Positions 24,410-47,518 of a stretch of 64,000 nucleotides of DNA are shown here, in pieces. Numbering within the stretch: position 1 is the stretch's first letter; each line of letters opens with the position of its first letter. The notes under the pieces are model-generated. The model was not told the origin of the DNA, ran no database searches, and worked only from the letters and a program-made list of their open reading frames with translations. The DNA comes from Deinococcales bacterium. GTDB lineage: Bacteria > Deinococcota > Deinococci > Deinococcales > JAAFIG01. The position numbers and the translations under genes are program-made. The stretch spans positions 9,497-73,496 of the forward strand of contig JANNVX010000114.1 of assembly GCA_031414595.1 (NCBI GenBank), written 5' to 3'.

Positions 24410-25066
24410 ATGAAAACCGATCAGCAACTTCGAGAAGATATTATTGCCGAACTGGAATATGACCCAAGCATTGAGACCAAAAAAATCTCGGTGGCAACCT
24501 TGAATGGCATTGTTACTTTATCTGGCAGTGTGCCAAATTTTTATGAAAAATGGAGCATCGAACGAGCCGTAAAGCGAGTGGCTGGCGTGAGCGGGATTGC
24601 CGAGGAATTAACCGTTCAAACTTTTCCCAATACTGAACAAACAGATAGCGAAATTGCCCAAGCCGCTCGATTGGCAATCCAATGGAGTGTGGCTATTGCC
24701 GAAGAACAGATTCAAATTATGGTTGAACAAGGGATCATTACACTCGAGGGTGCAGTGGATTGGCAGTACCAAAAGCAAAATGTCTACGATGCGGTTATTC
24801 ATTTACGCGGGGTTCAAGGTATTCATAATCGGATAACCTTAAAACCATACCTGACAAGTACCGACGTGCGTGAAAAAATCGAAGCTGCCTTTAAGCGCAG
24901 TGCCAACTTTAACGCAAAACAAGTTCATGTAACCGTGGACAACGGCAATGTCACGCTCGAAGGCAACTTGCCCACATGGACTGAACGTGACACCGCTAGC
25001 CGAGTGGCTTGGAACGCGGCGGGGGTGATGACGGTCAACAATCAAATTATGGTGGGTGGCATCTAA
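24410..25066 (+). CDS. Triple BON-domain (OsmY-like) protein
   Basis: Three BON repeats (GIVTLSG, GIITLEG, GNVTLEG...AWNAAGV..VNN); RBS AGGAG before ATG 24410. Confidence 0.9.
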   Translation: MKTDQQLREDIIAELEYDPSIETKKISVATLNGIVTLSGSVPNFYEKWSIERAVKRVAGVSGIAEELTVQTFPNTEQTDSEIAQAARLAIQWSVAIAEEQIQIMVEQGIITLEGAVDWQYQKQNVYDAVIHLRGVQGIHNRITLKPYLTSTDVREKIEAAFKRSANFNAKQVHVTVDNGNVTLEGNLPTWTERDTASRVAWNAAGVMTVNNQIMVGGI

Positions 25067-25110
25067 GAATGCGTTCAAAAAATGCGGCTGGCAAACAAAG
25101 GACCAAAATC

Positions 25111-25437
25111 ATGAAAGAAATTATGCCAAGTAAAGCCTCGGATATGTCAGATCGGATTCATGCCAATATGTACATAGAAAGTTGTATCAAAACCGCCAAA
25201 ACATTTGTTGGAACGGTTGCAGGTATAAAAAACGATCTTTTTATTAAATTGCGTAAACGCGACACACCAGATGGTAAACGCCGTTTTATTCCACTCGAGT
25301 GGGTTCTGTCAGTCGAAGGGGATACGGTGCTGCTGAGTAAAAAAGCTGAAACCGTCAGGCGCAGATGGTTGACCAAAGCAGCCGTTAAAAAGCATCTGCA
25401 CAAAATACATAAATCCCAAAGTCAGTCAAAGCCTTAA
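25111..25437 (+). CDS. DUF2171-like protein
   Basis: VGTV...IKLRKRDTPDGKRRFIPLEWV.SVEGDTV.LSK; start uncertain. Confidence 0.65.
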   Translation: MKEIMPSKASDMSDRIHANMYIESCIKTAKTFVGTVAGIKNDLFIKLRKRDTPDGKRRFIPLEWVLSVEGDTVLLSKKAETVRRRWLTKAAVKKHLHKIHKSQSQSKP

Positions 25438-25465: not shown

Positions 25466-25690
25466 ATGTACGACATCCCTAACCATCTCAGCGATGATTT
25501 ACCAACTTTAAGTCCGTTGGTCAGTTTAAGCCCCGAAGTCTTTCTCAAGAGCCAGCCAATGCTGCTTTATGCCGATATTCTCGAGCAACCAGACCACTTA
25601 CTGATTCGCATAAACGTACCAGGTGCAAGACCAGGGAACATTATTGTCACCTTGGAGAACAATGTTTTATCGGTAGCAGCCAAACTCGAG
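25466..25690 (+). pseudogene. 3'-truncated Hsp20/alpha-crystallin gene
   Basis: Paralogous to 38564..39046 up to ...NNVLSVAAKLE; homology stops at CTCGAG 25685-25690 and the ORF then reads antisense into the USP fragment. Confidence 0.8.
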
Positions 25691-25885
25691 CCACGGCTGG
25701 AGAATCTGTTGCGCTTCGTTTTTATTTGTTTCTTCAGGAATTATCAGAAAACGACCATGTTGCACATTGGTTAGAATCACAGTTGCTTCGAGTTGATGTG
25801 CCAGCAAAAAACCCGATTCGATGGCTTTATTTACGGCGGTTTGTTCATTGTGGGCAACGGGTATAAGAATTCGTTTGATGGTCAT
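25685..25885 (-). pseudogene. 3'-truncated universal stress protein gene
   Basis: MTIKRILIPV...AHQLEATVIL..V...EAQQILQPWLE with RBS AAGGAG; USP similarity ends at the same CTCGAG. Confidence 0.75.
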
Positions 25886-25911
25886 GATTCACGCTCCTTT
25901 TGTTAAAAGCT

Positions 25912-25943
25912 ACGTTAGAACCAGTGCATTACGGCGATATTAC
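25912..25943 (-). promoter_or_regulatory. SARP-type operator site 1
   Basis: GTAATAT-cgcc-GTAATGC-N8-TAACGT, upstream of the truncated USP. Confidence 0.65.
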
Positions 25944-26800
25944 TGCCAGCGCTCGAGAACCTGATTATGTTGACCCACACAAGCTCCATCGCTCGAGAAT
26001 GGACAATTGGCTGTAACTTGCACTGGTTGACGATTACAGATTTTCTCCCCGTTTTTGATCCGCTCAGCAAGCACTAAAGTTTCTGGCATTGGTGAATCCT
26101 CGAGTTCTGCGCGTAAAAAATGAATGAACCGACGGTAATGTTCGATGGCAGCGTACTTATCTTCCACCACTGATAGACAAGTCATCAGTTTTTGATGGTA
26201 GTTCTCGCCAATATACGGGTCTATTCGTAACGCCCTGACTAAAGCACCAACTGCACCTGCACACGCTCCTGTTCCGCAATGCAGCAAAGAAATCTCGAGA
26301 TTAGCTCGGACATATACACCGCGCAGTTCTTCGCGTAATTCATTTGCCCAAGCTACTGTCATACTGGGTAAGAAATCTCCTTTGTACAAACCAATAACAT
26401 TCTGAAAAGCCCTGAGTTTTAATTCTTCAGTTGCGGCATGATGGGCTGATTCAAGGGTTCTATACATCTGGTTTAAGTCGGTGGATGCCAGCACATAGGC
26501 ATTTAAGCGGTAACGATTGTGCTGCTCGAGTAACACATCGTTATTTTCGAGTGCCTGACGAATACGGTGTACCGTGACCCGAAACCGATTATTGCTTTCT
26601 TTAGTCGGTTCGGTTTGCCAGAGTTGCTCAAAAATTTCTTCTTTTTGCTTACCTTCAGGGTGGGCAAGTAAATAAAAAAAGAGTTCCTCGGCAGTTTTAC
26701 TCTTAAATTGAGCCTCTGCTCCATTCACCAGCACTTGATGCGTGCCTAGCGTTCTAATCTCGAGACTGATAAAGACCTCCAAGTGTAACCGAGCTTTCAA
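25940..26800 (-). CDS. SARP/AfsR-like transcriptional regulator (wHTH + BTAD) with Cys-rich C-terminus, paralog 1
   Basis: EIRTLG..QV, ELFFYLLAHP, EQLW, FRVTVHRIRQAL (wHTH); LYKGDFL, WANELRE, ALRIDPY.E..HQKLM, E..DSP.PET (BTAD). Start uncertain: GGAGG sits 5 nt before ATC 26770. Confidence 0.85.
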   Translation of the reverse strand: MKARLHLEVFISLEIRTLGTHQVLVNGAEAQFKSKTAEELFFYLLAHPEGKQKEEIFEQLWQTEPTKESNNRFRVTVHRIRQALENNDVLLEQHNRYRLNAYVLASTDLNQMYRTLESAHHAATEELKLRAFQNVIGLYKGDFLPSMTVAWANELREELRGVYVRANLEISLLHCGTGACAGAVGALVRALRIDPYIGENYHQKLMTCLSVVEDKYAAIEHYRRFIHFLRAELEDSPMPETLVLAERIKNGEKICNRQPVQVTANCPFSSDGACVGQHNQVLERWQ

Positions 26801-26835
26801 AGTGACCTAAACACAGCCTACAGCTTTGTAGACAG

Positions 26836-26867
26836 ATTATCCTAATTATTAATTACCAAAGCATTAC
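26836..26867 (-). promoter_or_regulatory. SARP-type operator site 2 (upstream of BTAD regulator 1)
   Basis: GTAATGC-tttg-GTAATTA-N8-GATAAT. Confidence 0.65.
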
Positions 26868-26896
26868 CAGTCTGTGAATCACGAATTAGTTAGGCT

Positions 26897-26928
26897 GTAA
26901 CGCTATGGTAATGCCAACCTTGCAGACT
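26897..26928 (+). promoter_or_regulatory. SARP-type operator site 3
   Basis: GTAACGC-tatg-GTAATGC-N8-CAGACT, then RBS AAGGAGG and USP ATG 26947. Confidence 0.7.
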
Positions 26929-26946
26929 CTTTCAAGGAGGCATTCC

Positions 26947-27375
26947 ATGTTTCAACATATCCTCGTTCCAATAGACTCGAGCCAATCCAGCAAAGCCGCC
27001 GCACAACTCGCTGCACGGTTGGCTCGAGCATGGGGAAGTCAGGTTACTTTTGTGCATATTTACGAAGGTGACGCGACCCAAGAAGCTCGGGCTTTACTCG
27101 AGGGTTTTATACAATACACCCGTCTTGTCCCACACCTGATTCTCGAGCCGATGCAGCATAACTTATCAGAAACACTGGTTGGACTTGCCACTCGAGAAGC
27201 CACCGAACTAATCCTGATTGGTGTTCATGCCTATGCCAGACTCGAGCAAGAAGTGCTGGATGGGGTGGCAGGAAGCATTTCGGAACAAGCCAAAATACCC
27301 GTCTTAATCGTGCCAATAGAAAGTAAAAAAGTTGGGTTTGAAGCGCGTTGGGCAAGTGCGGTAATGCAGCCGTAA
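26947..27375 (+). CDS. Universal stress protein (single domain)
   Basis: MFQHILVPIDSS..S..A, LILIGVH, PVLIVP. Confidence 0.85.
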   Translation: MFQHILVPIDSSQSSKAAAQLAARLARAWGSQVTFVHIYEGDATQEARALLEGFIQYTRLVPHLILEPMQHNLSETLVGLATREATELILIGVHAYARLEQEVLDGVAGSISEQAKIPVLIVPIESKKVGFEARWASAVMQP

Positions 27376-27392
27376 TGCCAGTACCGCAAACT
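27361..27392 (+). promoter_or_regulatory. SARP-type operator site 4 (upstream of the sORF-USP-nrfHA-pyk run)
   Basis: Perfect GTAATGC-agcc-GTAATGC-N8-CAAACT. Confidence 0.75.
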
Positions 27393-27412
27393 ATTCTCGA
27401 GTGAGGTGAACC

Positions 27413-27586
27413 ATGCGAACCATTCCAGTAATCGGTAGTTTAACCCTATTTCTAGCCAGTTTATTTGTTGCCATAAATTTACAAAAACCATTGGCAGGAC
27501 TGATTATTTTAATTGTTAGCTTGCTGACTTTGTGGCTCGAAGTTAGCCACCGAGATTCACAAGAAGGAGAACATCATGTTCGCTAA
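27413..27586 (+). CDS. Small two-helix membrane protein, 57 aa
   Basis: Below ORF-track cutoff; RBS GAGGTG; MRTIPVIGSLTLFLASLFVAINLQKPLAGLIILIVSLLTLWLEVSHRDSQEGEHHVR; overlaps the next start. Confidence 0.6.
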   Translation: MRTIPVIGSLTLFLASLFVAINLQKPLAGLIILIVSLLTLWLEVSHRDSQEGEHHVR

Positions 27587-28526
27587 AGTCTGCATTCCTG
27601 TTACCAACGAATCCCTGTCCATTCATGCGGCTCGAGCCGCGCTGGATTTTGCCCATAAACTCAAGGCTACAGCTGTGTTTGTATCGGTCTTTACAATGCC
27701 GATTATTTACCGCTCTCAGACCGAAGAAGAAGTTCGGCTTGAATTACAAAAAAATACTGAAGCCTTTCTCGAGACTTGGATAGAATTTGCCGAGCATCGC
27801 CAAGTTCCAGTCAGTACAATCGCCATTGAAGCTCGAGCCTCGGGAATCGCCCAAACCATTGCCGAAATTGCTCTTGAGGAACACTGCGATTTAATCGCTA
27901 TGGGAACACACGCCTACGAAGGGATGAACCGACTTTTGCTTGGTAGTATCGCCGAAGCTGTGACACGTTATTCGCACTTACCAGTGATGCTATTCCATAT
28001 CGGTCTTGTACCAACCGCCAAACCATTTGATTGCAACCGAATTCTGGTGGCTGTGGATGGTAGTCAAGCTACAGCCGAAGCACTTGATATTACCAGAGCT
28101 TTGGCTAAACAATTGCCTGCCAGTGTTGAAATCTTGCACGTAGTACCTGACGTTCCACCGACTTACGATACCATCATGCCAATGATTGATTACTCAAACC
28201 TAGCTACTGATTACTTAAACGAAGGTAAGCATATTTTGTACAACGCTGAAGCTAAACTAACCGACATTAGCAACAAGGAATTGGTTCTCGAGCCAGCCGG
28301 TGGTCGGCGAATTGCCACTGTGATTCTCGAGATTGCTAAAAATCATCACGCTGATTTGATTGTGCTGGGAACACACGGGTACGGTGGTTTAGACCGAATT
28401 TTACTCGGCAGCGTGGCGCAAGCCGTGGCGCACCATGCTCATGTGCCTGTGCTGCTGACTCGAGCAGCACAGCGCGAAGATGTGGCTGCCTCTGCTGCTA
28501 CTGCCCTCCCAAGTTTAGCTGTTTAA
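27576..28526 (+). CDS. Tandem-domain universal stress protein
   Basis: Two USP domains (DLIAMGTH...LLGSIAE; RILVAVDGS...DLIVLGTHG...LGSVAQ). Confidence 0.92.
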   Translation: MFAKVCIPVTNESLSIHAARAALDFAHKLKATAVFVSVFTMPIIYRSQTEEEVRLELQKNTEAFLETWIEFAEHRQVPVSTIAIEARASGIAQTIAEIALEEHCDLIAMGTHAYEGMNRLLLGSIAEAVTRYSHLPVMLFHIGLVPTAKPFDCNRILVAVDGSQATAEALDITRALAKQLPASVEILHVVPDVPPTYDTIMPMIDYSNLATDYLNEGKHILYNAEAKLTDISNKELVLEPAGGRRIATVILEIAKNHHADLIVLGTHGYGGLDRILLGSVAQAVAHHAHVPVLLTRAAQREDVAASAATALPSLAV

Positions 28527-28563
28527 GAATTTGTGACCTCGAGTTCCGTAAGGGGAGCAACCA

Positions 28564-29052
28564 ATGAAACTGACTTTTACTGCAATTCTTGCTTGGCTAT
28601 CGGGCAGTGGTTTCTTGGTAGCACTGGCGGCTGGTTTTGGTATTCTAGGCGGGGCTAGTGGATATACTGCTTATTATGCAGGTGCAACCAGTTACTTGTC
28701 GAGCGACCCGAAAGCCTGTGTCAATTGTCATATCATGCGCGAAGTCTACGATTCATGGGCAAAAGCACCGCATCATAACGTGGCGGTTTGTACCGATTGT
28801 CATTTACCCCATGATTTTATTGGCAAATGGCTTGCCAAAGCCGAAAATGGCTGGAATCACTCAAAGGCATTTACCTTACAAAATTTCCATGAACCAATCC
28901 GAATTAACAAAAAGAACCTAGAAATTCTCGAGCATAACTGCAAATCTTGTCATGCCGACACAGTGCATCAAATGGTATCCGAAGTCAAACAAGACAACAG
29001 CTTAGGTTGCTTGCATTGTCATGCTGATGTTGGGCATGGACCACAACGATAA
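28564..29052 (+). CDS. nrfH: Cytochrome c nitrite reductase small (tetraheme, membrane-anchored) subunit
   Basis: N-terminal TM; CVNCHIM, CTDCH, CKSCH, CLHCH; adjacent to nrfA. Confidence 0.93.
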   Translation: MKLTFTAILAWLSGSGFLVALAAGFGILGGASGYTAYYAGATSYLSSDPKACVNCHIMREVYDSWAKAPHHNVAVCTDCHLPHDFIGKWLAKAENGWNHSKAFTLQNFHEPIRINKKNLEILEHNCKSCHADTVHQMVSEVKQDNSLGCLHCHADVGHGPQR

Positions 29053-29061
29053 GGAGCAAAA

Positions 29062-30468
29062 ATGGCAAAGATTCGAGGTCCGGTACTGACTGCCAGTGTG
29101 TTCTTAGCTGGCGCACTTGTGACTGTTGGCGTATTAGCACTGTACACCAATATCGTGCAGCGCAAAGCTGAGGAAAAACAACACGTTTTCCAAGTTGTGG
29201 AAATTACTGAAGACACCATAGACCCTGCCGAATGGGGCAAGAATTACCCCAAGCAATATGATAGTTACAAACGCACTGTGGATACCGAACGCACCCGTTA
29301 TGGTGGTTCGGAAAACTTTCAAAAACTTGATTCCGACCCGTTCCTACGCACCATCTTTGCAGGTTACGCCTTTGGCATAGATTTCAGGGAAGAACGCGGT
29401 CATGCCTTTATGCTCGACGACCAACGCGAAACCAAACGAGTCACCGAACGCAAACAACCCGGCGCGTGCCTAAATTGCCATGCCAGTGTACTGACCGCCT
29501 TTCGGGAAACTGGTGTCAAAGCAGGAGTACCAAACGACGAAGACCACCGTTGGGAAGCCGTAGCCAAAGGCTTTACATTGGTCAATAAACTCACGTACTC
29601 GGCTGCTACAGCCCTTGTGACCCACCCTGTTTCATGTGTGGACTGCCATAACCCAACCGACATGGCTGTGCGTGTGACCCGACCAGCCTTTATGAATGGA
29701 ATCCAAGCTCTTGCCAAATCAAACGACCCACTGCCTAATTTCCCCAGCATCGAACGCTGGCGCAAAACCAATCAAGCCGTGCCGTATGACCCAAACAAAG
29801 AAGCCTCACGCCAAGAACTGCGAAGCATGGTCTGCACCCAATGCCATGTCGAGTATTACATCACCAAAGAAGACAAACAACTGACCTTCCCGTGGCAGAA
29901 CGGACTTAAGCTCGAGCAAATCGAAAAGTATTACGACGATGTGGGTTGGAAAGACTGGGAACACAAAATTTCTAAAGCCCCAGTGTTAAAAGCCCAACAC
30001 CCAGAAATGGAACTCTGGTCACAAGGCATTCATGCTCGAAGCGGCGTAGCCTGCGCCGACTGCCATATGCCCTATCAGCGCCAAGGCGCAATTAAAGTCT
30101 CGAGCCACCATGTTCGTAGTCCGATGTTAAACGTGGCACAAGCCTGCCAGACTTGCCACCGGTACGACGAAACAGAAATCAAAGCTCGAGTCGAAGTTAT
30201 TCAAGACCGCACTCAGAAATTATTGACCCAATCAGAATCGGCAGTTGTGGACTTGATCAATGCCATTGCAACCGCCATGAAAGCCAAAAAAACCGACTCA
30301 CAACTTAAAACTGCCCGCGATTTCCAACGCAAAGCCCAATTCCGAGCCGATTTTATCAATGCCGAGAACAGCATGGGATTCCATGCACCCCAAGAAGCTG
30401 CACGCTTACTAGCCGAGAGTATTAATTTTGCGCGGCTTGGACAACTCGAGGTTGCAAAACTAAAGTAA
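29062..30468 (+). CDS. nrfA: Ammonia-forming pentaheme cytochrome c nitrite reductase, CxxCH heme-1 variant
   Basis: RGH, CLNCH, CVDCH, CTQCHVEYY, KAQHPE, CADCHMPY, CQTCH, AENSMGFHAP. Confidence 0.93.
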   Translation: MAKIRGPVLTASVFLAGALVTVGVLALYTNIVQRKAEEKQHVFQVVEITEDTIDPAEWGKNYPKQYDSYKRTVDTERTRYGGSENFQKLDSDPFLRTIFAGYAFGIDFREERGHAFMLDDQRETKRVTERKQPGACLNCHASVLTAFRETGVKAGVPNDEDHRWEAVAKGFTLVNKLTYSAATALVTHPVSCVDCHNPTDMAVRVTRPAFMNGIQALAKSNDPLPNFPSIERWRKTNQAVPYDPNKEASRQELRSMVCTQCHVEYYITKEDKQLTFPWQNGLKLEQIEKYYDDVGWKDWEHKISKAPVLKAQHPEMELWSQGIHARSGVACADCHMPYQRQGAIKVSSHHVRSPMLNVAQACQTCHRYDETEIKARVEVIQDRTQKLLTQSESAVVDLINAIATAMKAKKTDSQLKTARDFQRKAQFRADFINAENSMGFHAPQEAARLLAESINFARLGQLEVAKLK

Positions 30469-30480
30469 GGATTTGAATTT

Positions 30481-32335
30481 ATGAAAACTAAGTCGCTCGA
30501 GCCACCGCTTAAAAAAATGATTGCCCAAGTCCTTAACCTACGCAACCAAGCTATTGCCCTCGAGCAAACGTACCACGTTGAACTTAAAAAAATTCGCCCC
30601 CCATATTTGCAAAGCGCTCGAAATTTAATTCATTACTTGGCGGTGCGCCAACAAGACATTCGTGAGATACAACTTGAGTTGCAACGCCTTGGTCTGAGTT
30701 CGCTTGGGCGCATGGAAGCCAATGTTTTAGCAACGCTCAATGCCGTGTTGTTCGCTTTGCAACGCATGGCTGGCTCGAGCGAACAGCTTGAGGTAACGCT
30801 TGACCCACAGCTTGAGGTAACGCTTGACCCACAGCTTGGGCGCTTACTTCGTAATCACACCACCCGAATTCTTGGTAAAAGTCCACGACATCGGGCAGTG
30901 AGAATCATGGTCACAATGCCCGAACAAGCTGCCACCGATGCTGGTTTAATTGCCAAATTTCTCGAGTGTGGTATGGATATTATGCGAATAAACTGCGCTC
31001 ATGACGATGCCATAACTTGGGCAAAGATGCTCGAAAATCAGCGCCAAGCAACCATTCAACTTGGACGCAGTTGTCGTGTTGTCTTTGATTTGGCTGGACC
31101 AAAACTTCGCACTGGATTATTTGAAGCGAGCGCAGAAGTCCTCAAAATAAAACCAGCGCGATCAATTTGGACGAGTGGTGACCAAAGCTCGAGTCTTTTT
31201 TACAACCACAAAGTTAAGTGCGCCAACCCAAACAGTCTGTATTCCAGTAACCGAGTTACAATTGCAAAGCTGCCAACTAGGTGATCAATTTTTGTTGACC
31301 GATGCTCGAGGTCGCTCGAGAATTTTTGAGATTATTGAGCTTTTAGCCACTGGTTGTATTTGCCAAATCGAACGAACTGCCTACTTGACTTCGGGAATGC
31401 CAATTTGTGTTTACCACAATAAAAAACAATTGCTTGAGGGTCGAATTGGCAAGTTGCCCTCAAAACCACAAGCCCTCGAGTTGCGAGTTGGAGATACGTT
31501 AATCGTGACCCACGATAGTATTCTTGGCAATCAAGCCCGAATTGAGAACGGGATGCCAATACCAGTCCAGATTGGTTGTACTTTGCCACAAGTCTTTGGT
31601 GATGTCAAACCAAACGAGCGAATTCTATTTGACGACGGCATCATCGCTGGCATCATCAAAAAAGTCAGTCCAGAACAACTCGAGGTAGAAATCACCAATG
31701 TGGCTGGAGGTCTAGCAAAACTTCGTTCCGAAAAAGGCATTAACTTACCTGATACCGATTTTTCGATAGCTGCTTTGACTGAAAAAGACCTCGAAGACCT
31801 CAAGTTTATTGTTAAAAACAGCGATATGGTTTCGTTATCCTTTGTCCGAAACCGAAAAGACATCGAAATGTTGATTGCTCAACTCGAGCAATTAGGCGGG
31901 AAGCACCTTGGCATTGTCTTAAAGATTGAGAATCGTCTTGCTTTTGAGAATTTACCCGATTTACTACTGACAGCCTTGTCTCACCCACCGGTTGCAATCA
32001 TGATTGCTCGAGGCGACTTAGCTGTGGAAATAGGGTTTGAGCGCCTTGCTGAAGTCCAAGAAGAAATTCTTTGGCTCTGCGAAGCGGCGCATATTCCCGT
32101 GATTTGGGCAACCCAAGTGCTGGATTCGTTAGCAAAAAATGGTTCACCAACTCGAGCCGAAGTGACCGACGCTGCCATGTCAGGACGCGCTGAATGCGTC
32201 ATGCTTAACAAAGGCTCATACATTCCCGAAGCCTTGTTGTTTCTTGATAATGTTCTGCGACGCATGAAGCAACATCAGAACAAAAAAACTTCGATGCTCA
32301 GACGCTTAAAAGTAACAACGCCAAAGCTCGAGTAG
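30481..32335 (+). pseudogene. pyk: Long-type pyruvate kinase, split by a frameshift near 31156-31160
   Basis: ORF1: GLSSLGR.E, RIMVTMP, RINCAHD, DLAGPKLRTG. ORF2: FDDG, KGINLP, KIE, ARGDL.VE, WATQVL, TRAEVTDA, CVMLNKG. The frames join as KIKPA(R)DQFGRVV if 2 nt are restored in GCGCG. Confidence 0.85.
30784..30838 (+). repeat. In-frame 24-bp tandem duplication inside pyk (QLEVTLDP x2)
   Basis: CAGCTTGAGGTAACGCTTGACCCA repeated exactly twice, plus a partial third copy. Confidence 0.9.
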
Positions 32336-32366
32336 CTGATGTACCTCTAAAACAAATACCAAATAA

Positions 32367-33215
32367 CTAAGCCAGACCAACGTAAGCACCATCTCTCGAG
32401 AAACAGCAATTGGTTGTAAATGACATCGGTTCGCGGTTACAAATTTTCTCACCGTTTTTGATTCGTTCAGCCAGAGCAACCGTTTCGGGCATTGGTGAAT
32501 CCTCAAGTTCTACTTGTAAAAAATGAATAAAGCGTCGGTAATGCTCTATTGCAATGTATTTATCTTCGACCACGGATAAACAGGTCATTAGTTTTTGATG
32601 ATGATTCTCTCCCATATACGGGTCTATCCGCAGGGCTGCATCTAAGGTACTGACTGCTTTGGCACACGTACCAGTTCCACAATAAAGCAGCGAAATCTCG
32701 AGGTTAGCACGAACAAAAACCCCGCGCAGTTGTTCACGCAGTTCATTTGCCCAAGTTGTGGTTATGCTCGGTAAAAAGTCGCCTTGATAGAGTGCGATAA
32801 CACGCTTAAAGGCTTGCAATCGCAGTTCTTTGTTTGGGGCATGGCGGGCTTCTTCTAGGGTCTGATAAATTTGGTTTAAGTCGGTAGCCGCCAGCACAGC
32901 CGCGTTTAAGCGGTAACGATTATCTTGCTCGAGCAGTGCCTGATTATGCCCGAGTGCCTGACGAATACGGTGTACGGTGACTCTAAAACGATTATTGCTT
33001 TGGTTGGTTGGTTCGGTTTGCCAGAGTTGCTCGAGAATTTCTTCTTTTTGCTTACCGTTTGGATGAGCCAGTAAGTAAAAAAAGAGTTCTTCGGCGGTTT
33101 TACTCTTAAATTGGGCGGCTTGGTTATTGACCAAAACATGGTGTCTGCCAAGGGTCGCAATCTCAAGAATCGGGCAAACCTCAAGAAGTTCTTGCCCAAT
33201 CCGACCTTGCTCCAT
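32367..33215 (-). CDS. SARP/AfsR-like regulator (wHTH + BTAD) with Cys-rich C-terminus, paralog 2
   Basis: Closely similar to 25940..26800 (AQFKSKTAEELFFYLLAHP, NNRFRVTVHRIRQAL, ANLEISLL.CGTG.C, KLMTCLSVVEDKY, AERIKNGEKICNR); RBS AAGGAG before ATG 33215. Confidence 0.88.
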   Translation of the reverse strand: MEQGRIGQELLEVCPILEIATLGRHHVLVNNQAAQFKSKTAEELFFYLLAHPNGKQKEEILEQLWQTEPTNQSNNRFRVTVHRIRQALGHNQALLEQDNRYRLNAAVLAATDLNQIYQTLEEARHAPNKELRLQAFKRVIALYQGDFLPSITTTWANELREQLRGVFVRANLEISLLYCGTGTCAKAVSTLDAALRIDPYMGENHHQKLMTCLSVVEDKYIAIEHYRRFIHFLQVELEDSPMPETVALAERIKNGEKICNREPMSFTTNCCFSRDGAYVGLA

Positions 33216-33299
33216 TTTTTTCTCCTTGACACTGCGTAAAAAACCCAAATTCTGGAGTATTGCAACTCGAGCGAATTTGGGTTTTGCAGGAGTAAAATC

Positions 33300-33342
33300 A
33301 GAGTAAGGCGCAGAACTGAAGTCTGGCTGAAGAGTAACTGAA
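33300..33342 (-). promoter_or_regulatory. Perfect triple TTCAG array upstream of BTAD paralog 2
   Basis: TTCAG-N6-TTCAG-N6-TTCAG-N10-TACTCT. Confidence 0.75.
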
Positions 33343-33371
33343 CATAAACTACCTTGGCTCGAGCCTTAGGT

Positions 33372-33893
33372 TTAACTTTGTGCTACGGCTCTTAGAATAT
33401 CGCTGGTGGTCACAATACCTTTAAGTTCATCGCCGTACAGCACCACTAAACACGAAATGTTCTCCTCGAGCATGACTCTGGCTGCATATGCCACTGGCGC
33501 GTCTTGGAGGATTGTAATCACTGGGTTGTGCATCAGTTCTTTAGCCGTGGTTTTCTCGAGCAGCAGAGGGATTTCCCATTGGGCGAGGCTAGTTGCATCC
33601 GACGGTAAGGCACGGCGAATGTCTCGGTCAGTAATAATACCAACGATTCGGTCATGATTTTTAACCAATAAATGCCGAAAACCATGTTCTTGTAAAATCC
33701 GTCGAATCTCGGGCAGGGTGGTGCTGACTTCGACGCTGATAACCTTGGCAGTCATGATTTCATGGACGCACCAATAACCGCTTTCACGGGCAAGCAATGG
33801 GGTTTGACTACTGATGTGGTCTTGATGCCCGAAACGCAATATAAATTCATCTTTGGTTTGCTCGAGCTTGGTGATACCTGTGGTTGTGGTCAT
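33372..33893 (-). CDS. CBS-domain pair protein
   Basis: EIMT..VISV, FRHLLV, VGIITDRDI, LM..PVITI, KGIVTTSDIL. Confidence 0.9.
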   Translation of the reverse strand: MTTTTGITKLEQTKDEFILRFGHQDHISSQTPLLARESGYWCVHEIMTAKVISVEVSTTLPEIRRILQEHGFRHLLVKNHDRIVGIITDRDIRRALPSDATSLAQWEIPLLLEKTTAKELMHNPVITILQDAPVAYAARVMLEENISCLVVLYGDELKGIVTTSDILRAVAQS

Positions 33894-33909
33894 ATATTTT
33901 CTCCTTTTG

Positions 33910-35511
33910 TTACAGCGTTAGCAGAATTTGCGCCAGCAGTATCTTGGCAATCATTGCCATTGGATAAACAGTCGCGTAACCTTGATTGGGTAGGTCGTTG
34001 CCGCTTCGTTCGGTGGCAAAGGCAAGCACGGCTGGTTGGGTTTGCAAGCCTGCCAGCATTCCAATCGCAATCGGGAACGGGACGCGCAGGATTTTATGGG
34101 CAATAAATAACAAAGTAATGGCTACAAAACAAGTCAGGAACGTACCCAGTAAAAATAAGGTGATTCCGAGGCTCGAGAAGACTGTTTGACCAAAAGCAAA
34201 ACCCGAACGTGTGCCGACCCCCGCTAAAAACAGCACAATCCCAATTTGGCGTAAGGTCAGGTTAGCACTGTACGGAATCTGCCATAAGACCCCTAAAAAA
34301 CGTTCTCCCCAACCGAGCAACAAACCAACAATCAGTGTGCCACCCGCAATACCAAGTTCAAAATGACCACCGTTTGGCAATGGGATTTTTAGACTACCGA
34401 GCAGCAAGCCAAGGGCGATTCCTAAGCCAAACGACAGCACATCAATTTCAGAAAGATGCTGGTACGAATCGCCTAGAAAACTCGAAATCGCTTTCATTTC
34501 TTGGGGCGCACAAACCACCCGCACTCGGTCGCCTAACTCAAGAACGGTGTCTTTATTGGGTAAAAATTCTATATCTCCGCGCCGAACTCGAGTTATCAAT
34601 GCCCCAAAACGCTGTGGCAATTGCAACTCTAGTAGGCTTCGCCCAGCCACAGCTTGGCTAGAAACAAAAACCCGACGGTAATCAAAATGACTGCGGTCTA
34701 GTTCGAGTGCGGCTGGAATAACCTCACCAAGCCGATTGATACTTTTTTGAACAGCTTCTTCTGTACCAATCAGGGTAATAATATCACCAAGCTCAAAAGT
34801 TGTTTTTGGCGAGACCAGACTTTGAATTTGACCACGCTGATGTCGCGCAAACAGCACATTCCAGCCCTCTGACTGTGCCACCACGGTTAAACCAATTAAA
34901 TCTGGGTTGGTCAGGCGTACCGAGGCACTTTTTAAGCCGTTGGCTGTAAACCCAGCCACTCGAGCCGACTCGAGTTTCATATCTACCCGCCAGAATCGCT
35001 CGAGTAAGCCAATACAAAGCAGCATCGCAATCACACCCATTGGGTACGCCACGCTGTAACCAAGCACCGGTAAGGATTCGGCACTCGTACCCTTGATCGC
35101 CTCGAGTACCCCTGCTAAGGCGGGCGTATTGGTGAAAGCACCAGCAAAGACCCCAGCCACTAAACTCGGCTCGAGATTGAGAATGCGGCGCAGCAAACTC
35201 GAGACCAGCACGGCTAGTATTAACGCCCCCAGCACCAGGGCATTATCGCGCAGACCACGCTTGCCTAGACTGCGAAAAAAACCTGTGCCACTGGATAAAC
35301 CAATCGTATAGACAAATAACACCAAGCCAAGGCGCTGAATAATCTCGGGCAGTTTAAGTTCGGCATCCAAACTACCAAACGCTAGCCCTACAAATAAAAC
35401 GGCGGCAATACCCAAGGAAAAACCCGCAATTTTGACCCGCCCGAGCAGAAAGCCTAAGCTCGAGACCAGAAAAAGCAGCAGCAGTGGGTTTTCTTTGAGT
35501 AAGGTCAGCAT
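33910..35511 (-). CDS. AspT/YidE/YbjL family transporter with TrkA-C domains
   Basis: LGIAAVLFVGL, GLVLFVYTIGL, GAFTNTPALA, YSVAYP.G, RVRRGD, GMLAG.QTQPAVLAFA. Confidence 0.9.
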   Translation of the reverse strand: MLTLLKENPLLLLFLVSSLGFLLGRVKIAGFSLGIAAVLFVGLAFGSLDAELKLPEIIQRLGLVLFVYTIGLSSGTGFFRSLGKRGLRDNALVLGALILAVLVSSLLRRILNLEPSLVAGVFAGAFTNTPALAGVLEAIKGTSAESLPVLGYSVAYPMGVIAMLLCIGLLERFWRVDMKLESARVAGFTANGLKSASVRLTNPDLIGLTVVAQSEGWNVLFARHQRGQIQSLVSPKTTFELGDIITLIGTEEAVQKSINRLGEVIPAALELDRSHFDYRRVFVSSQAVAGRSLLELQLPQRFGALITRVRRGDIEFLPNKDTVLELGDRVRVVCAPQEMKAISSFLGDSYQHLSEIDVLSFGLGIALGLLLGSLKIPLPNGGHFELGIAGGTLIVGLLLGWGERFLGVLWQIPYSANLTLRQIGIVLFLAGVGTRSGFAFGQTVFSSLGITLFLLGTFLTCFVAITLLFIAHKILRVPFPIAIGMLAGLQTQPAVLAFATERSGNDLPNQGYATVYPMAMIAKILLAQILLTL

Positions 35512-35526
35512 AAATACCTCGAGATT

Positions 35527-37356
35527 TTATTCGTGGGCGAGTTCCCCAAGTTCTGGTGAACGCCATAGCGCACTGAGCATTAACTCGCGGATAAAAATAA
35601 ATTCTTTGGGCAATCTATCGTAGAGTTTGATAAATAATTCGTCGTGCGAGGCAATTTCTTGTTGCCATAATTCGCGGTCAATACTGATTAACTGCTCGAA
35701 TTGGGTTTTGGTCATGTCCAGACCGCGCCAATCCATGTCCTCATAGCGGGGAACCCAACCAAGGACACTTTCGACGCTAGTGGCATGACCTCTGGCACGT
35801 TCGACAATCCATTTGAGGACGCGCATATTTTCGCTAAAACCATGCCATAAGTAGTTGCCGGCTGCGTCTTTGCGAAACCAATTGACATTAAAAATTCTTG
35901 GTGGGTTGGGTAATTCCCTGCCAAGTTGCACCCAATGATTAAAGTAATCACCCATGTGATAACCACAAAAAGGTAGCATCGCAAATGGATCGCGGCGGAC
36001 TGCCCCTGTTGCACCAACTGCCGCCGCCGTAGTTTCGCTACCCATTGTAGCAGCCGCATAAACACCATAAGTCCAATTAAAACTCTGGTAAACCAGTGGT
36101 ACAACCTTCGAGCGTCTGCCACCAAAGATAAAGGCAGAAATTGGTACGCCATCTGGGTCGTTATAAGCTGGGTCAATGACTGGGCATTGGGCTATCGGCG
36201 CGGTAAATCTCGAGTTAGGATGGGCGGCTTTGCGTCCACAATCAGGGGTCCAGTCTTGTCCTGTCCAGTCTATTAAATGCGCGGGTGGTGTGGCGCTCAT
36301 ACCTTCCCACCAAACATCGAGGTCGTCGGTCAGGGCAACATTGGTAAAAATCGTATTCTCGAGAATGCTGTTCATGGCGTTGGGATTAGATTCAAAATTT
36401 GTGCCTGGAGCAACCCCAAAAAAACCTGCTTCTGGGTTGATGGCTCGGAGTTGCCCGTGGCTGTCTGCTTTTATCCAAGCAATGTCATCTCCAACTGTAC
36501 TGATTTCCCAACCATCATCGGTAAAAGGTTTTGGTGGTATCAGCATCGCAAAATTGGTTTTACCACAAGCACTTGGAAAGGCTGCCGCCACATAGGTTTT
36601 TTCGCCGTTCGGGTCTTTAACACCAAGAATCAGCATATGTTCGGCTAACCAATTTTGTTCTTTTGCCAGCACACTAGCGATTCTTAGGGCAAAACACTTT
36701 TTACCAAGCAAGGCGTTGCCACCGTAACCAGAACCATAACTCCAGATACTGCGTTCCTCGGGGAAATGAACGATGTACTTGTCAAAGTTACATGCCCAGC
36801 TACTGTCTTTTTGTCCAAACTCGAGCGGTGCGCCAAGGCTGTGTAAGCAATGCACAAAATCGTTGTTCCCCAATGCTTCGAGTACCGCTTGTCCCATGCG
36901 CGTCATAATTCGCATATTGACCGCCACATATGGCGAATCGGATAATTCTACGCCAATGTGCGAAATTGAACTGCCAATCGGACCCATGCTGAACGGAATC
37001 ACATACATCACCCGTCCGCGCATTGAACCCGCAAATAAGCCTTGCAACTTGGTTTTCATGGCTTTGGGTTCAAACCAATTGTTCATCGGACCCGCGTCGG
37101 ATTTACTTCTCGAGCAAATATAAGTGCGGTCTTCGACCCGTGCCACATCGGTCACTGCGGAACGTGCCAAAAAACTATTCAGGCGCTTATCGGGGTTAAG
37201 CCGTATAAACGTACCACTTTGCACCATTTGTTCACAGAGCTTGTCGTATTCTTCTTGTGAGCCATCGCACCAATGAATGCTGTCTGGCTGGCATAATGCC
37301 GCGACTTCTGCGACCCAACGTTGTAACTCGAGGTTGCTTGTGAATTCTTTTGTCAT
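35527..37356 (-). CDS. pckG: Phosphoenolpyruvate carboxykinase (GTP)
   Basis: [69 protein letters not shown]; start at ATG 37356 after AGGAGG. Confidence 0.96.
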
Positions 37357-37374: not shown

Positions 37375-37406
37375 AGTTTGCAACTCGAGAATTACCAGTG
37401 CATTAC
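37375..37406 (-). promoter_or_regulatory. SARP-type operator site 5 (pckG operon)
   Basis: GTAATGC-actg-GTAATTC-N8-CAAACT. Confidence 0.72.
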
Positions 37407-37427: not shown

Positions 37428-37459
37428 GTAATGCCTTGGTAATGCCAGCCTTCGAGACT
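37428..37459 (+). promoter_or_regulatory. SARP-type operator site 6 (ldh-like gene)
   Basis: Perfect GTAATGC-cttg-GTAATGC-N8-GAGACT, then RBS GGAGG. Confidence 0.75.
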
Positions 37460-37476: not shown

Positions 37477-38382
37477 ATGAAAATCAGTATTATTGGAGCA
37501 GGAATGGTTGGTGGCGCAATTGCCAATGCTTTAGCCCAAAAGAACTTGGCTTTAGAAGTCGTTTTAATAGATAAAGAACACAGTCTTGCCGATGCACAAG
37601 CCCTTGACATCAATAGTGGATTCATGGGACAAACCATTATTCGCGCAGGTGAACTCAGTGATGTTCATGATTCAAAAATCATTATTCTCGCCGCAGGTCA
37701 ACGCACCACCTTTAATTACAGCAGTAAGCAATTACTCGAAGTCAACACCACCATCTTACAAACCACCCTCAGCACCATCCGAGCCATAGAGTTACAATCA
37801 GACGTGATCATCATCAATGCGATTCAACCAATTGACATGATGACCAATCACATTGCCAAATTATTTGGCGAAAAATATACAAATCGAATTATTGGCACAG
37901 GCACAATCCTCGAGACCAACTTATTCCGACAAGCCATCGCTAAACAAGTTGGTGTTCATTTAAGTCAAGTTCATGGGTATGTACTTGGACAACAAGGCGG
38001 CAGTGCTTTAATGGCATGGAGTACGGTTCGCGTAGCTGGCATTCCGTTTGAAACCTACCTCGAGCAGCACGGACAGCACCTGACCAATCAAACCAAGAAT
38101 AAAATCGCAGAAGCCGTACAGTACGCGGTCAATAAAGCCTTGCAGCAAAAAGGATCGTTTTTGTTTGGCTTAGGTCATGCCATTACCCATTTAATCAATG
38201 CAATTATCGAAGACCGTCATGAAATCATGACCGTCAGTGCATGGGATGAAGCTCAGGGCGTTGCGATTGCCTTACCACGAATTATCGGTAATAGTGGTGT
38301 TCTCGAGACGGTCGAACCGATGTTATCGCCCGATGAAGCTGCAAAACTCGAAGTGATTATCGGCTATTTTCGCAACGTTTAG
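37477..38382 (+). CDS. L-lactate/malate dehydrogenase-fold protein with substituted catalytic residues
   Basis: [11 protein letters not shown]ossmann motif intact, but NPVD->QPID, GTxLDxxR->[12 protein letters not shown]->GQQG. Confidence 0.8.
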
Positions 38383-38411
38383 TTGTGTATTTAGGATAGA
38401 AATCTATTGTT

Positions 38412-38449
38412 TTCAGCAAGTCTTCAGCTAAATAACCTTACGCATTCAG
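38412..38449 (+). promoter_or_regulatory. TTCAG array upstream of the hsp20-dps-BON run
   Basis: TTCAG at 38412, 38423 and 38445 (11-bp grid); -10 not clearly placed. Confidence 0.6.
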
Positions 38450-38563
38450 GTGATGATGCTTACTTATGGAGAGTCAAATTTTCCACTGGCAGATTGTGGC
38501 ATAGGTCGTGGTTTAAGTAAATTATTTTACTTGAAGAAGATGGGTTAGTTAAGGAGAAAAACA

Positions 38564-39046
38564 ATGGTTCATTATGATATTCCCAAGCAGCTTCTTCCTG
38601 AAAAACAACTTACCCATGAAATTTGTCCACCCCAAAAGCTAGGCATCAGTCCAGAGGTGATTCTCAACGGCTTACCGAGGTTGTTACATACCGATGTTCT
38701 CGAGCAGCCAGACCATTTGTTAATCCGTATGAACTTGCCAGGTGTAAAACCAGAAAATGTGGCGGTCACACTAATGAACAATGTCTTATCGGTAGTGGCG
38801 CGGCTCGAGACTGAATCGCTAGAAGCACAGTATTTGTGGCGTGAACGCCCAAGTGGTGAAGTTTTTCGTTCGATTGCTTTAATTGGCGACCTCGAGATGT
38901 GTGGTGGTCGGGCTTTTCTCGAGCATGGCGTGTTGACTGTGCGGGTTAATAAAGTCAATAGCCATGTGCTTGCAGTACAACTTGGGGCGCTCGAGCATGA
39001 TTACTTAGAGCTTGTGCAAACAGACTTTTGTCAAGCTTGGTACTGA
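38564..39046 (+). CDS. Hsp20/alpha-crystallin family small heat shock protein
   Basis: DVLE..D.LLIR..LPGVKPE...V.L..NVL.V, RERP.G.V.RSI.L, A.LEHGVLTV. Confidence 0.85.
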   Translation: MVHYDIPKQLLPEKQLTHEICPPQKLGISPEVILNGLPRLLHTDVLEQPDHLLIRMNLPGVKPENVAVTLMNNVLSVVARLETESLEAQYLWRERPSGEVFRSIALIGDLEMCGGRAFLEHGVLTVRVNKVNSHVLAVQLGALEHDYLELVQTDFCQAWY

Positions 39047-39058
39047 ACAAGGAGTTTT

Positions 39059-47495: not shown

Positions 47496-47518
47496 GTACT
47501 CGAGTAAAAGGAGTTCAT

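What the first reader, a model, noticed from the sequence alone, without database searches (positions are those of the whole stretch)
25940..33215. Cys-rich BTAD regulators as possible Fe-S/redox oxygen sensors
Seen: both ~285-aa paralogs lack any separate sensor or receiver domain but share five cysteines in the C-terminal half (CGTGxC, LMTC, EKICNR, [AT]NC). Paralog 1 adds DGAC and paralog 2 has NCC. Known: FNR, NreB and WhiB sense O2/NO via Cys-ligated Fe-S clusters, and Thermus thermophilus DnrS is, as I recall, an O2-sensitive BTAD-containing denitrification regulator (with a GAF domain). Inference: a one-component O2/NO sensor with a cluster built on the BTAD domain.
Basis: partly seen in the sequence, partly recalled or inferred. 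Interest (0 to 1): 0.8.

Follow-up and report, generated by a model that had tools for sequence, protein, structure and literature searches.

The report
Cysteine-bearing SARP activators of a low-oxygen regulon
Two sister regulator genes belong to an undescribed Deinococcus-group family that carries six conserved cysteines and appears to switch on stress, fermentation and low-oxygen respiration genes through a conserved DNA repeat, which makes it a good candidate for the group's missing oxygen or redox sensor.

Summary
In 91 aligned relatives, all from Deinococcota, six Cys columns are conserved in 79-91 sequences; generic SARPs lack them.

New here: the family has a conserved operator, the direct repeat GTAATGC-N4-GTAAT(G/T)(C). 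It lies exactly 8 nt upstream of a -10-like hexamer at 70 of 83 sites, which is the classic SARP promoter geometry.

In the window, six sites precede SARP1 itself, three USP genes (one a remnant), the operon holding NrfHA and pyruvate kinase, PEPCK with a transporter and a CBS gene, and LDH. In relatives, sites also precede CBS genes, terminal oxidase operons, ferredoxins and a nitroreductase. This gene set resembles the mycobacterial DosR hypoxia regulon.

Across 151 Deinococcota genomes, protein and operator co-occur: 48 have both, 20 the protein only, 6 the operator only, 77 neither.

The regulator-operator-regulon link is well supported. The cofactor is unproven: a Cys-ligated Fe-S oxygen sensor is my best guess (about 0.4), ahead of a zinc/thiol switch or a structural zinc site. 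I could not measure whether the cysteines cluster in space. I found no publication on this family.

The parts
25940..26800 (-). SARP paralog 1 (wHTH + BTAD + Cys tail), with all six family cysteines. The start codon is uncertain: TTG at 26800, or an ATC behind a GGAGG where a relative has ATG.
32367..33248 (-). SARP paralog 2. It has five of the six family cysteines (the sixth is Y) plus an extra C in NCC. The likely start is the ATG at 33215.
26852..26867 (-). Operator repeat GTAATGC-TTTG-GTAATTA, with GATAAT 8 nt downstream. It faces SARP1, so predicted autoregulation.
26897..26912 (+). Operator repeat GTAACGC-TATG-GTAATGC (one mismatch), with CAGACT 8 nt downstream. It faces USP1.
27361..27376 (+). 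Operator repeat with CAAACT 8 nt downstream. It faces a 57-aa membrane ORF followed by USP2-NrfH-NrfA-PK.
25928..25943 (-). Operator repeat with TAACGT 8 nt downstream. It faces a truncated USP-like ORF.
37391..37406 (-). Operator repeat with CAAACT 8 nt downstream. It faces PEPCK.
37428..37443 (+). Operator repeat with GAGACT 8 nt downstream. It faces the LDH/MDH-family gene.
25667..25885 (-). 72-aa USP-like remnant. The relative L011 has a 325-aa tandem USP at this position.
26947..27375 (+). USP1, with the start corrected to MFQHILVP behind a GGAGG.
27413..27586 (+). 57-aa predicted membrane ORF, conserved in L012. It is the first gene behind the 27361 site.
27576..28526 (+). Tandem USP (USP2).
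28564..30468 (+). NrfH (28564-29052) and NrfA (29062-30468), the ammonia-forming cytochrome c nitrite reductase. Membership of the same operon is inferred from same-strand, tightly spaced genes.
30481..32335 (+). Pyruvate kinase with an N-terminal extension. It is split by a frameshift near 31155-31165.
33372..37356 (-). PEPCK (35527-37356), AspT/YidE/YbjL-family transporter (33910-35511) and CBS-pair protein (33372-33893). I predict one operon behind the 37391 site.
37477..39046 (+). LDH/MDH-family dehydrogenase (nearest the L-LDH model), followed by Hsp20 at 38564-39046. I have no evidence on whether transcription continues into Hsp20, or into Dps and BON beyond it.
33240..33285 (-). 13-bp-stem terminator-like hairpin between CBS and SARP2, followed by a U run. 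There is no canonical operator in front of SARP2.

Best explanation
The two genes encode members of a Deinococcota-specific family of small SARP activators. Two protomers bind head to tail to the direct repeat GTAATGC-N4-GTAAT(G/T)(C), which has an 11-nt period and lies 8 nt upstream of the -10 hexamer. There they stand in for the -35 contact and recruit RNA polymerase, as AfsR does.

In this genome they activate SARP1 itself (positive feedback), USP genes, the USP2-NrfHA-pyruvate kinase operon, the PEPCK-transporter-CBS operon and an LDH-like gene. In relatives they also activate CBS genes, terminal oxidase operons, ferredoxins, a flavodoxin-domain gene and a nitroreductase. Together this is a hypoxia/dormancy-type regulon, analogous in content to mycobacterial DosR.

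The signal is read by the protein itself through its conserved cysteines. Three sit at one end of the BTAD helical bundle (C175, C180, C208). Up to three more sit in the flexible C-terminal tail that leaves the same end (C255, C266, C274). I think they most likely ligate an oxygen- or NO-labile Fe-S cluster, so that the holo-protein is active when oxygen is scarce.

Shown in silico: family membership, Cys conservation, the operator, its promoter geometry and the genes behind it. Inferred: activation, the signal and the cofactor.
For: Fold and family:
- The AlphaFold model has mean pLDDT 92.1, and Foldseek matches AfsR (8k60, 8hvr) and EmbR (2ff4) at TM 0.68-0.70 over 243-250 columns.
- A profile search of PDB sequences hits AfsR at E 2e-7.

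Cysteines:
- The six Cys columns are conserved in 79-91 of 91 sequences.
- C175 and C180 are absent from 11 of 11 generic SARPs.
- Ligand swapping is seen. Sequences with R at 175 keep the other five, or add a CxC at 255-257. Those lacking C255 keep C266. A subgroup keeps only C175, C180, C208 and C255. So about four thiols are always retained, as expected for a four-ligand metal site.
- The C266 position is often followed by Pro (NCPF, PCP[RK]).

Operator:
- Exact GTAATN6GTAAT occurs 54 times in 700,640 nt of the 55 related loci, against about 1.3 expected.
- Five exact sites and one single-mismatch site in the window all lie within 25.9-37.4 kb.
- 70 of 83 sites have nAnnnT at offset +8, against at most 12 of 83 at any other offset from 0 to 21. 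Direct repeats 8 nt upstream of the -10 are the known SARP geometry (PMC11301090, passages).
- The six window sites stand 17-26 nt from the -10 to an RBS-preceded start codon for five genes.
- The recognition-helix motif NRFRV is invariant or nearly so in the family.

Co-occurrence in 151 Deinococcota genomes:
- The protein is present in 68 and the operator-plus-(-10) pattern in 54. The reversed-pattern control hit 1 genome.
- 48 have both, 20 the protein only, 6 the pattern only and 77 neither.
- Many sites lie within 200 nt of the SARP gene.

Regulon:
- The first genes behind 65 sites are Usp 25, CBS 10, the SARP itself 8, PEPCK 4, and LDH, P-type ATPase, nitroreductase, flavodoxin-domain and others at 1-2 each.
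- Further sites precede a CBS-COX2-COX1-cytochrome c operon, a COX2-COX1 operon, two ferredoxins, DoxX and tandem USPs.
- In the D. psychrotolerans plasmid the SARP sits between a USP/CBS/DoxX/phosphoketolase cluster and a cytochrome oxidase operon.
- The DevR/DosR regulon tables list USPs, hspX, ctpF, nitroreductases, fdxA and narK2 (PMC3177182).
Against: - No cofactor evidence exists, and sequence alone cannot tell Fe-S from zinc.
- The tail that holds three Cys is modelled at pLDDT 53-75. I could not obtain coordinates, so spatial clustering rests only on helix topology.
- Some close relatives carry an added C-terminal GAF-like domain while keeping the Cys. That could mean the Cys site is structural and the signal is read elsewhere.
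- The core regulon (USP, CBS, Hsp20, Dps, BON) also fits a general stress, stationary-phase or desiccation response. The clearly oxygen-related targets (NrfHA, oxidases, PEPCK, LDH) appear only in subsets of lineages.
- Genome-wide, the bare 10-base pattern is not strongly enriched: 22 against about 12 expected in G000. With one mismatch the window count is 9 against 3.4 +/- 1.9. The signal lies in clustering and promoter geometry.
- The PWM was built partly from the window's own sites.
- 20 of 68 genomes with the protein have no exact pattern match.
- The loci were selected for holding the SARP and many are close kin, so counts are not independent.
- SARP2 has no canonical site upstream.
Confidence: 0.42

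Rival explanations
1. Same regulator, operator and regulon, but the cysteines form a zinc-thiolate or thiol-disulfide redox switch (RsrA-, Spx- or OxyR-like logic). The switch would report oxidant load or the cellular thiol redox state rather than oxygen through an Fe-S cluster.
For: The number of conserved thiols is flexible (4-6), and the flexible tail could lock onto the BTAD domain by disulfides or zinc. Dps, Hsp20 and USP targets also fit oxidative or desiccation stress.
Against: Anaerobic-metabolism targets (NrfHA, PEPCK, LDH, alternative oxidases, ferredoxin) fit oxygen lack better than oxidant excess. There are no paired CxxC knuckles typical of zinc sites.
Confidence: 0.25
2. The cysteines hold a purely structural metal (a Cys4 zinc) that pins the C-terminal tail to the BTAD domain. 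The activator is then controlled otherwise: by its own abundance (autoregulation), by partner proteins such as the adjacent USP or CBS proteins, or in long forms by the GAF-like domain.
For: Long-form relatives add a GAF-like domain yet keep the Cys. USP or CBS genes are almost always next door. Many small SARPs are regulated only at the expression level (general knowledge of the family, recalled).
Against: The short forms, which make up most of the family, have no other domain that could read a signal. AlphaFold does not place the tail confidently, as it often does for structural zinc sites (weak argument).
Confidence: 0.2
3. The Cys-rich site senses a thiophilic metal ion and controls the neighbouring P-type ATPase.
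For: A P-type ATPase lies near the SARP in several loci and behind one predicted site.
Against: The ATPase has the Cation_ATPase_N and Cation_ATPase_C domains of the type II (Ca/Mg/alkali) pumps and no heavy-metal domain. Most targets are unrelated to metal homeostasis.
Confidence: 0.04

Closest known systems
Small SARP activators and the SARP module of AfsR / EmbR (PDB 8hvr, 8k60, 2ff4)
   Same: The N-terminal OmpR-type winged helix plus BTAD fold is shared (TM 0.68-0.70). So are the tandem direct repeats with an 11-nt period placed 8 nt upstream of the -10.
   Different: Sequence identity is about 20%. This clade is from Deinococcota, not Actinomycetota. It carries six clade-specific cysteines and a Cys-bearing C-terminal tail. 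Its targets are stress and energy-metabolism genes rather than antibiotic clusters. NCBIfam has no model for it (AfsR model 31-40 bits against a cut-off of 1430).
Thermus thermophilus DnrS (oxygen-sensitive regulator of nitrate respiration)
   Same: It is from the same phylum, contains BTAD, and is proposed as an oxygen sensor of unknown mechanism (PMC5748679 and PMC7694296, passages).
   Different: DnrS is described as a large protein with a GAF domain. The window proteins have none. No Thermus record was hit among PLSDB plasmids, and one genus with Thermus-sized genomes had 0 of 27 matches. I did not hold a DnrS sequence, so I made no direct comparison.
Fe-S sensor regulators FNR, NsrR, WhiB-like proteins, NreB
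   Same: The proposed logic is the same: a one-component regulator whose Cys-ligated cluster reports O2 or NO. The targets include anaerobic respiration and fermentation genes.
   Different: There is no homology. Pfam shows no Crp, Rrf2, Whib or PAS domain. The scaffold here would be a TPR-like BTAD bundle plus a tail. No cofactor has been shown.
Mycobacterial DevR/DosR dormancy regulon
   Same: The gene content is similar: several USPs, an alpha-crystallin/Hsp20, a P-type ATPase (ctpF), nitroreductases, a ferredoxin and nitrogen-oxide metabolism (PMC3177182 tables).
   Different: DosR is a LuxR-type response regulator driven by the haem-GAF kinases DosS and DosT (recalled). Here a single SARP protein would both sense and activate.
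Deide_19260-type REC-SARP regulators of Deinococcus (COG3947)
   Same: They are SARP-type regulators conserved in Deinococcus (PMC3564903, passages).
   Different: Those carry an N-terminal CheY-like receiver. The present family has none, and has the Cys signature instead.

Membership tests
SARP family (Streptomyces antibiotic regulatory protein type) | N-terminal OmpR-type winged-helix DNA-binding domain | tested here: met
   Pfam Trans_reg_C is sub-threshold (21.6 and 20.8 bits against 26.2). However, the model's residues 13-105 fold as strands plus three helices, and the whole protein superposes on AfsR and EmbR. The profile also hits AfsR and SaeR DNA-binding domains.
SARP family | BTAD (TPR-like helical) domain following the winged helix | tested here: met
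   PF03704 scores 48.4 and 53.9 bits against a cut-off of 22.1.
SARP family | Binds tandem direct repeats with an 11-nt period that overlap the -35 and lie 8 nt upstream of the -10 | tested here: met
   Met in silico only. 70 of 83 repeat sites have nAnnnT at exactly +8. Repeat and regulator co-occur across genomes. Binding itself was not tested.
SARP family | Acts as a transcriptional activator | not testable with these tools
   Inferred from the site position, which replaces a -35 element.
Fe-S cluster sensor regulators (FNR / NsrR / Wbl / NreB), as a functional class | Homology to one of these families | tested here: not met
   Pfam and NCBIfam give only BTAD/AfsR-type hits.
Fe-S cluster sensor regulators, as a functional class | Three or four conserved Cys (or Cys plus another ligand) positioned to ligate one cluster | tested here: inconclusive
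   Conservation is met, and about four thiols are always retained. Geometry was not measurable. Helix topology places C175, C180, C208 and the start of the tail at the same end of the bundle (inference).
Fe-S cluster sensor regulators, as a functional class | Bound Fe-S cluster that reacts with O2 or NO | not testable with these tools
   Needs anaerobic purification and spectroscopy.
Thermus DnrS | GAF domain joined to BTAD | tested here: not met
   There is no GAF in either window protein. A weak GAF or GAF_2 match appears in only 2 of the 17 family members scanned among the 24 proteins (E 2e-4 and 4e-5).
DevR/DosR-type hypoxia regulon (analogy only) | LuxR-type response regulator with cognate haem kinases | tested here: not met
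   The regulator here is a SARP. Only the regulon content is similar.

The most novel reading that the evidence does not exclude
This is a new class of direct oxygen/NO sensor. An Fe-S cluster is held between a TPR-like BTAD bundle and a flexible Cys tail of a one-component SARP activator. The protein serves as the master hypoxia/dormancy regulator of Deinococcus, Meiothermus and their uncultured relatives. It would be the functional counterpart of FNR and DosRST in a phylum where neither is known to do this job. The 6-Cys and 4/5-Cys paralogs in this genome would give two thresholds or two signals.
Probability: 0.35. Interest if true: 0.85.

Novelty: new variant of a known kind. Interest (0 to 1): 0.7.

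Why it matters
How Deinococcota sense oxygen is largely open. The reviews I read call the sensing mechanism of Thermus DnrS unknown. Three literature searches returned nothing on a Cys-bearing SARP or on a hypoxia regulator in Deinococcus.

This work supplies a concrete, testable candidate:
- a regulator family found in 68 of 151 sampled Deinococcota genomes;
- its operator;
- a predicted regulon that includes USP and CBS proteins, alternative terminal oxidases, nitrite ammonification and fermentative enzymes.

It would also extend SARPs, known mainly as antibiotic-pathway activators of actinomycetes, to one-component environmental sensors. And it would add a new protein scaffold to the short list of Fe-S or thiol-based transcriptional sensors. 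Cultured hosts exist (Meiothermus, Calidithermus chliarophilus, Deinococcus pimensis and others), so the biochemistry is feasible.

Tried and rejected
- **CTCGAG as the operator.** It stood out in the intergenic regions. But it occurs 300 times in the window against 7.2 expected, in coding DNA too, so it is a genome-wide iterated palindrome and not a site for this regulator.
- **Genome-wide regulon in G000 by PWM.** High-scoring hits outside the locus lie in coding DNA with no RBS or start codon behind them. I treat them as chance, and the regulon in this 94%-complete assembly looks confined to the locus.
- **Generic sigma-70 promoter and terminator scan of 25.4-38.7 kb.** Counts were no higher than in shuffles (19 against 17.5; 11 against 16.3), so it was uninformative.
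- **Link to DnrS by tblastn of the long-form relative P0141 against PLSDB plasmids.** 15 records matched, none from Thermus. I do not know whether plasmids bearing the nitrate-respiration element are in that collection.
- **Expression data.** No RNA holder is listed for 25600-35500. The DNA holders are sediment metagenomes that may be the source of this DNA. I did not lay reads.
- **Spatial clustering of the Cys.** The structure tool returns no coordinates and /data holds no model file, so I computed no distances.
- **Complex prediction.** Not used, because it does not score ligands and a SARP dimer would pass by likeness to AfsR.
- **Earlier notes of this scan for this place.** None found.
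- **NCBIfam.** It has no specific model for the family.


Full report
**What is there.** The interval given spans two minus-strand ORFs, 25940-26800 (286 aa) and 32367-33248 (293 aa, or 282 aa from the ATG at 33215). Between them lie two USP genes, nrfH, nrfA and a pyruvate kinase gene. The two proteins are 78% identical over 270 residues. Pfam finds BTAD above threshold and the OmpR-type winged helix just below it, and nothing else. An AlphaFold model built on a 91-sequence alignment has mean pLDDT 92.1. The core, residues 11-250, is above 94 and the last 36 residues are at 53-75. Foldseek places it with AfsR (8k60, 8hvr) and EmbR (2ff4) at TM 0.68-0.70 over 243-250 columns. A profile search of PDB sequences hits AfsR at E 2e-7.

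**The cysteines.** Paralog 1 has six Cys, all between residues 175 and 274. Paralog 2 shares five, has Tyr at the sixth position, and has an additional Cys next to the fifth.

A word-indexed search found 244 relatives at E <= 0.001. Every named relative among the 120 listed is from Deinococcota (Deinococcus, Calidithermus, Deinococcales MAGs). A scan of one genome per species gave 55 loci, all in Deinococcales MAGs, Deinococcus, Meiothermus or Calidithermus.

I aligned the two window proteins with 89 of the 118 other listed hits. The six Cys columns hold Cys in 85, 91, 91, 88, 84 and 79 of 91 sequences, against a mean column identity of 44%. All six are present in 72 sequences.

The exceptions are informative:
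- Five sequences with Arg at position 175 keep the other five Cys.
- One sequence with Arg at 175 and no tail Cys has a CxC at 255-257.
- Sequences lacking C255 keep C266.
- A subgroup that includes orthologs of paralog 2 keeps only C175, C180, C208 and C255.

About four thiols are always kept.

An exhaustive profile search of 1.84 billion representatives shows a sharp break. About 40 representatives score 180-424 bits, and below them come generic SARPs joined to TPR or NB-ARC regions at 168 bits or less. In 11 such generic SARPs, C175 and C180 are never Cys and C208 is Cys in 4. The signature is therefore a clade character and far beyond chance.

Some family members of 406-484 aa carry a C-terminal extension. 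In two of them it gives weak GAF matches, and they still keep the BTAD cysteines and a C-x10-PC motif.

**The operator.** Comparing the regions upstream of the SARP genes in the window and in relatives revealed a shared direct repeat. Its consensus is GTAATGC-N4-GTAAT(G/T)(C): two heptamers with an 11-nt period.
- The exact core GTAATN6GTAAT occurs 54 times in 700,640 nt of the 55 loci, against about 1.3 expected.
- In the window there are five exact copies and one single-mismatch copy between 25.9 and 37.4 kb.
- With the looser GTAA[TC]N6GTAAT there are 83 sites in the window plus loci. Of these, 70 have an nAnnnT hexamer starting exactly 8 nt after the second heptamer, while no other offset from 0 to 21 has more than 12.

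Direct repeats 8 nt upstream of the -10 that overlap a poor -35 are the known geometry of SARP-dependent promoters, and two AfsR protomers bind such repeats side by side (PMC11301090, passages read). The recognition-helix motif NRFRV is invariant or nearly so in the family, which fits the constancy of the repeat from Deinococcus to Meiothermus.

**Limits of the operator evidence.**
- In the whole G000 assembly the bare pattern occurs 22 times against about 12 expected.
- With one mismatch allowed, the window count of 9 is matched by 1 of 100 shuffles.
- The evidence is therefore the clustering, the -10 phasing and the conservation next to the regulator, not raw counts.
- A PWM scan put six of the sixteen best genome hits in this locus, but the PWM included these sites.
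- The other high scorers lie in coding DNA with no ribosome-binding site behind them.

**Co-occurrence.** I sampled 151 Deinococcota genomes. The protein (E <= 1e-40) is present in 68. The operator-plus-(-10) pattern is present in 54, while the same pattern read backwards matched in one genome. Of the 151, 48 have both, 20 the protein only, 6 the pattern only and 77 neither. Kin are not independent, so I give no weight to the Fisher p-value. One pattern-only genome carries the same site as locus L064, where the SARP match is split in two. Many sites lie within 200 nt of the SARP gene. One genus with 2.1-2.5 Mb genomes has neither the protein nor the pattern in 27 genomes.

**The regulon.** In the window the sites face six targets:
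- SARP1 itself;
- USP1 (true start at 26947);
- a 57-aa membrane ORF followed by USP2-NrfH-NrfA-pyruvate kinase;
- a 72-aa USP remnant;
- PEPCK (true start at 37356), followed by an AspT/YidE/YbjL-family transporter and a CBS-pair protein;
- an LDH/MDH-family dehydrogenase, nearest the L-LDH model.

Hsp20, Dps and BON genes follow the LDH-like gene on the same strand, but I have no evidence that they are co-transcribed.

Across the window and the 55 loci, 71 sites passed the -10 filter. My simple ORF caller found a first gene behind 65 of them. These were Usp 25, CBS 10, the SARP itself 8, PEPCK 4, phosphoribosyltransferase-domain 2, and one each of LDH, P-type ATPase, DUF2171, baeRF family 10, DUF4383, flavodoxin-domain, nitroreductase and DUF4342. 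Eight had no Pfam match.

I then looked at sites far from the SARP gene in four further genomes, scanning 36 of 40 called ORFs and leaving out four of 52-63 aa. They precede:
- a CBS-COX2-COX1-cytochrome c operon;
- a COX2-COX1 operon whose subunit II has the PF09125 transmembrane domain;
- DoxX;
- single and tandem USPs;
- a four-CBS protein;
- two 4Fe-4S ferredoxins;
- a flavodoxin-domain protein;
- a hydrolase-LonC-like operon;
- VanW plus a ZIP transporter;
- ABC ATPases.

In a Deinococcus psychrotolerans plasmid the annotated neighbours are USP, CBS, USP, DoxX and phosphoketolase on one side and a cytochrome oxidase operon on the other.

Several USPs, an Hsp20, a P-type ATPase, nitroreductases, a ferredoxin and nitrogen-oxide metabolism are also the hallmark of the mycobacterial DevR/DosR hypoxia regulon (PMC3177182, tables read). 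Nitrite ammonification, PEPCK, LDH and alternative terminal oxidases point to adaptation to oxygen lack. My recollection that PF09125 derives from the Thermus ba3 oxidase, and that this oxidase is a low-oxygen enzyme, comes from no call.

**Mechanism.** I propose that two protomers, possibly of both paralogs since their DNA-binding regions are nearly identical, bind the repeat and recruit RNA polymerase. SARP1 would amplify itself through its own site. SARP2 has no canonical site and sits behind a terminator-like hairpin (dG -25.7 kcal/mol, z -2.5) that is conserved in L013. It may supply the basal level.

The sensor would be the Cys set. In the model, C175 ends helix 150-176, C180 starts helix 180-193, and C208 lies near the C-terminal end of helix 199-212. 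Helix 239-249 ends at the same pole, and from there the tail with C255, C266 and C274 departs. By helix topology, then, at least four thiols can meet at one end of the bundle. This is inference. I could not get coordinates, and the tail is of low confidence.

Four points together favour an Fe-S cluster:
- the always-retained set of about four thiols, with swapping;
- the Cys-Pro at the fifth position;
- the absence of CxxC knuckles;
- the oxygen-related regulon.

Nothing excludes zinc or disulfide chemistry. The GAF-bearing long forms show that the lineage sometimes adds another sensor.

My confidences:
- the regulator-operator-regulon link: about 0.85;
- a low-oxygen or redox signal: about 0.6;
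- Fe-S specifically: about 0.4.

**Comparison and novelty.** The proteins are members of the SARP family by fold, domains and promoter geometry. They are not members of FNR, NsrR, Wbl or NreB. They are not close relatives of DnrS as far as I could test, and I had no DnrS sequence. The published Deinococcus SARP-type regulator Deide_19260 has a receiver domain and is a different architecture (PMC3564903, passages).

Three searches of the open literature returned nothing on this family, its repeat or a hypoxia regulon in Deinococcus:
- SARP / Deinococcus / BTAD;
- SARP / iron-sulfur cluster / transcriptional activator domain;
- Deinococcus / hypoxia / universal stress protein / transcriptional activator / ba3.

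Subscription journals are not covered. Earlier notes of this scan describe Cys-rich PAS-SARP regulators next to respiratory operons in Chloroflexota. That is a parallel case but a different architecture, and I did not test it. I class the finding as a new variant of a known kind.

Noticed in passing
whole window (for example 121-126, 247-252, and about 300 sites in all): The palindrome CTCGAG occurs 300 times in 64 kb, against 7.2 +/- 2.4 expected from dinucleotide shuffles. It occurs in coding and intergenic DNA alike, so it is a genome-wide highly iterated palindrome reminiscent of cyanobacterial HIP1. It also appears often in related Deinococcales MAG loci.
   Followed up: partly
30481-32335 (+), break near 31155-31165: The pyruvate kinase gene is split into two overlapping ORFs in different frames. 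The relative L022 has a single 631-aa ORF, so this is a frameshift: either a pseudogene or an assembly error. The N-terminal ~135 residues are a non-PK extension that contains a tandem LEVTLDPQ duplication.
   Followed up: partly
25466-25885: A 72-aa USP-like remnant on the minus strand (the relative L011 has a 325-aa tandem USP here) overlaps a 102-aa plus-strand ORF with only a partial Hsp20 match. This looks like a decayed junction left by a rearrangement that brought the two SARP loci together.
   Followed up: partly
23778-25437 and 38564-41166: A stress module is duplicated. Dps (169 aa in both copies) followed by triple-BON proteins, with DUF2171 or Hsp20, flanks the SARP region on both sides. 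No canonical operator lies directly in front of either Dps gene.
   Followed up: no
33240-33285 (-): A 13-bp-stem hairpin followed by a U run sits about 20 nt upstream of the SARP2 ribosome-binding site. It is conserved in the ortholog locus L013. It may be a terminator of the PEPCK-CBS operon or an attenuator for SARP2.
   Followed up: partly
P0121, P0126 and other 406-484-aa relatives (not in the window): Long forms of the same family carry a C-terminal extension of 160-240 residues. In two of them it gives weak GAF or GAF_2 matches, and they retain the BTAD cysteines and a C-x10-PC motif. The architecture is winged helix-BTAD-Cys linker-GAF.
   Followed up: partly
10401-18863 (-): A single 2820-aa ORF, not examined.
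   Followed up: no
47339-48625 (+): A baeRF family 10 (release-factor-like) gene. A homolog is the first gene behind a predicted SARP site in the Calidithermus locus L036, but no site precedes the window copy.
   Followed up: no
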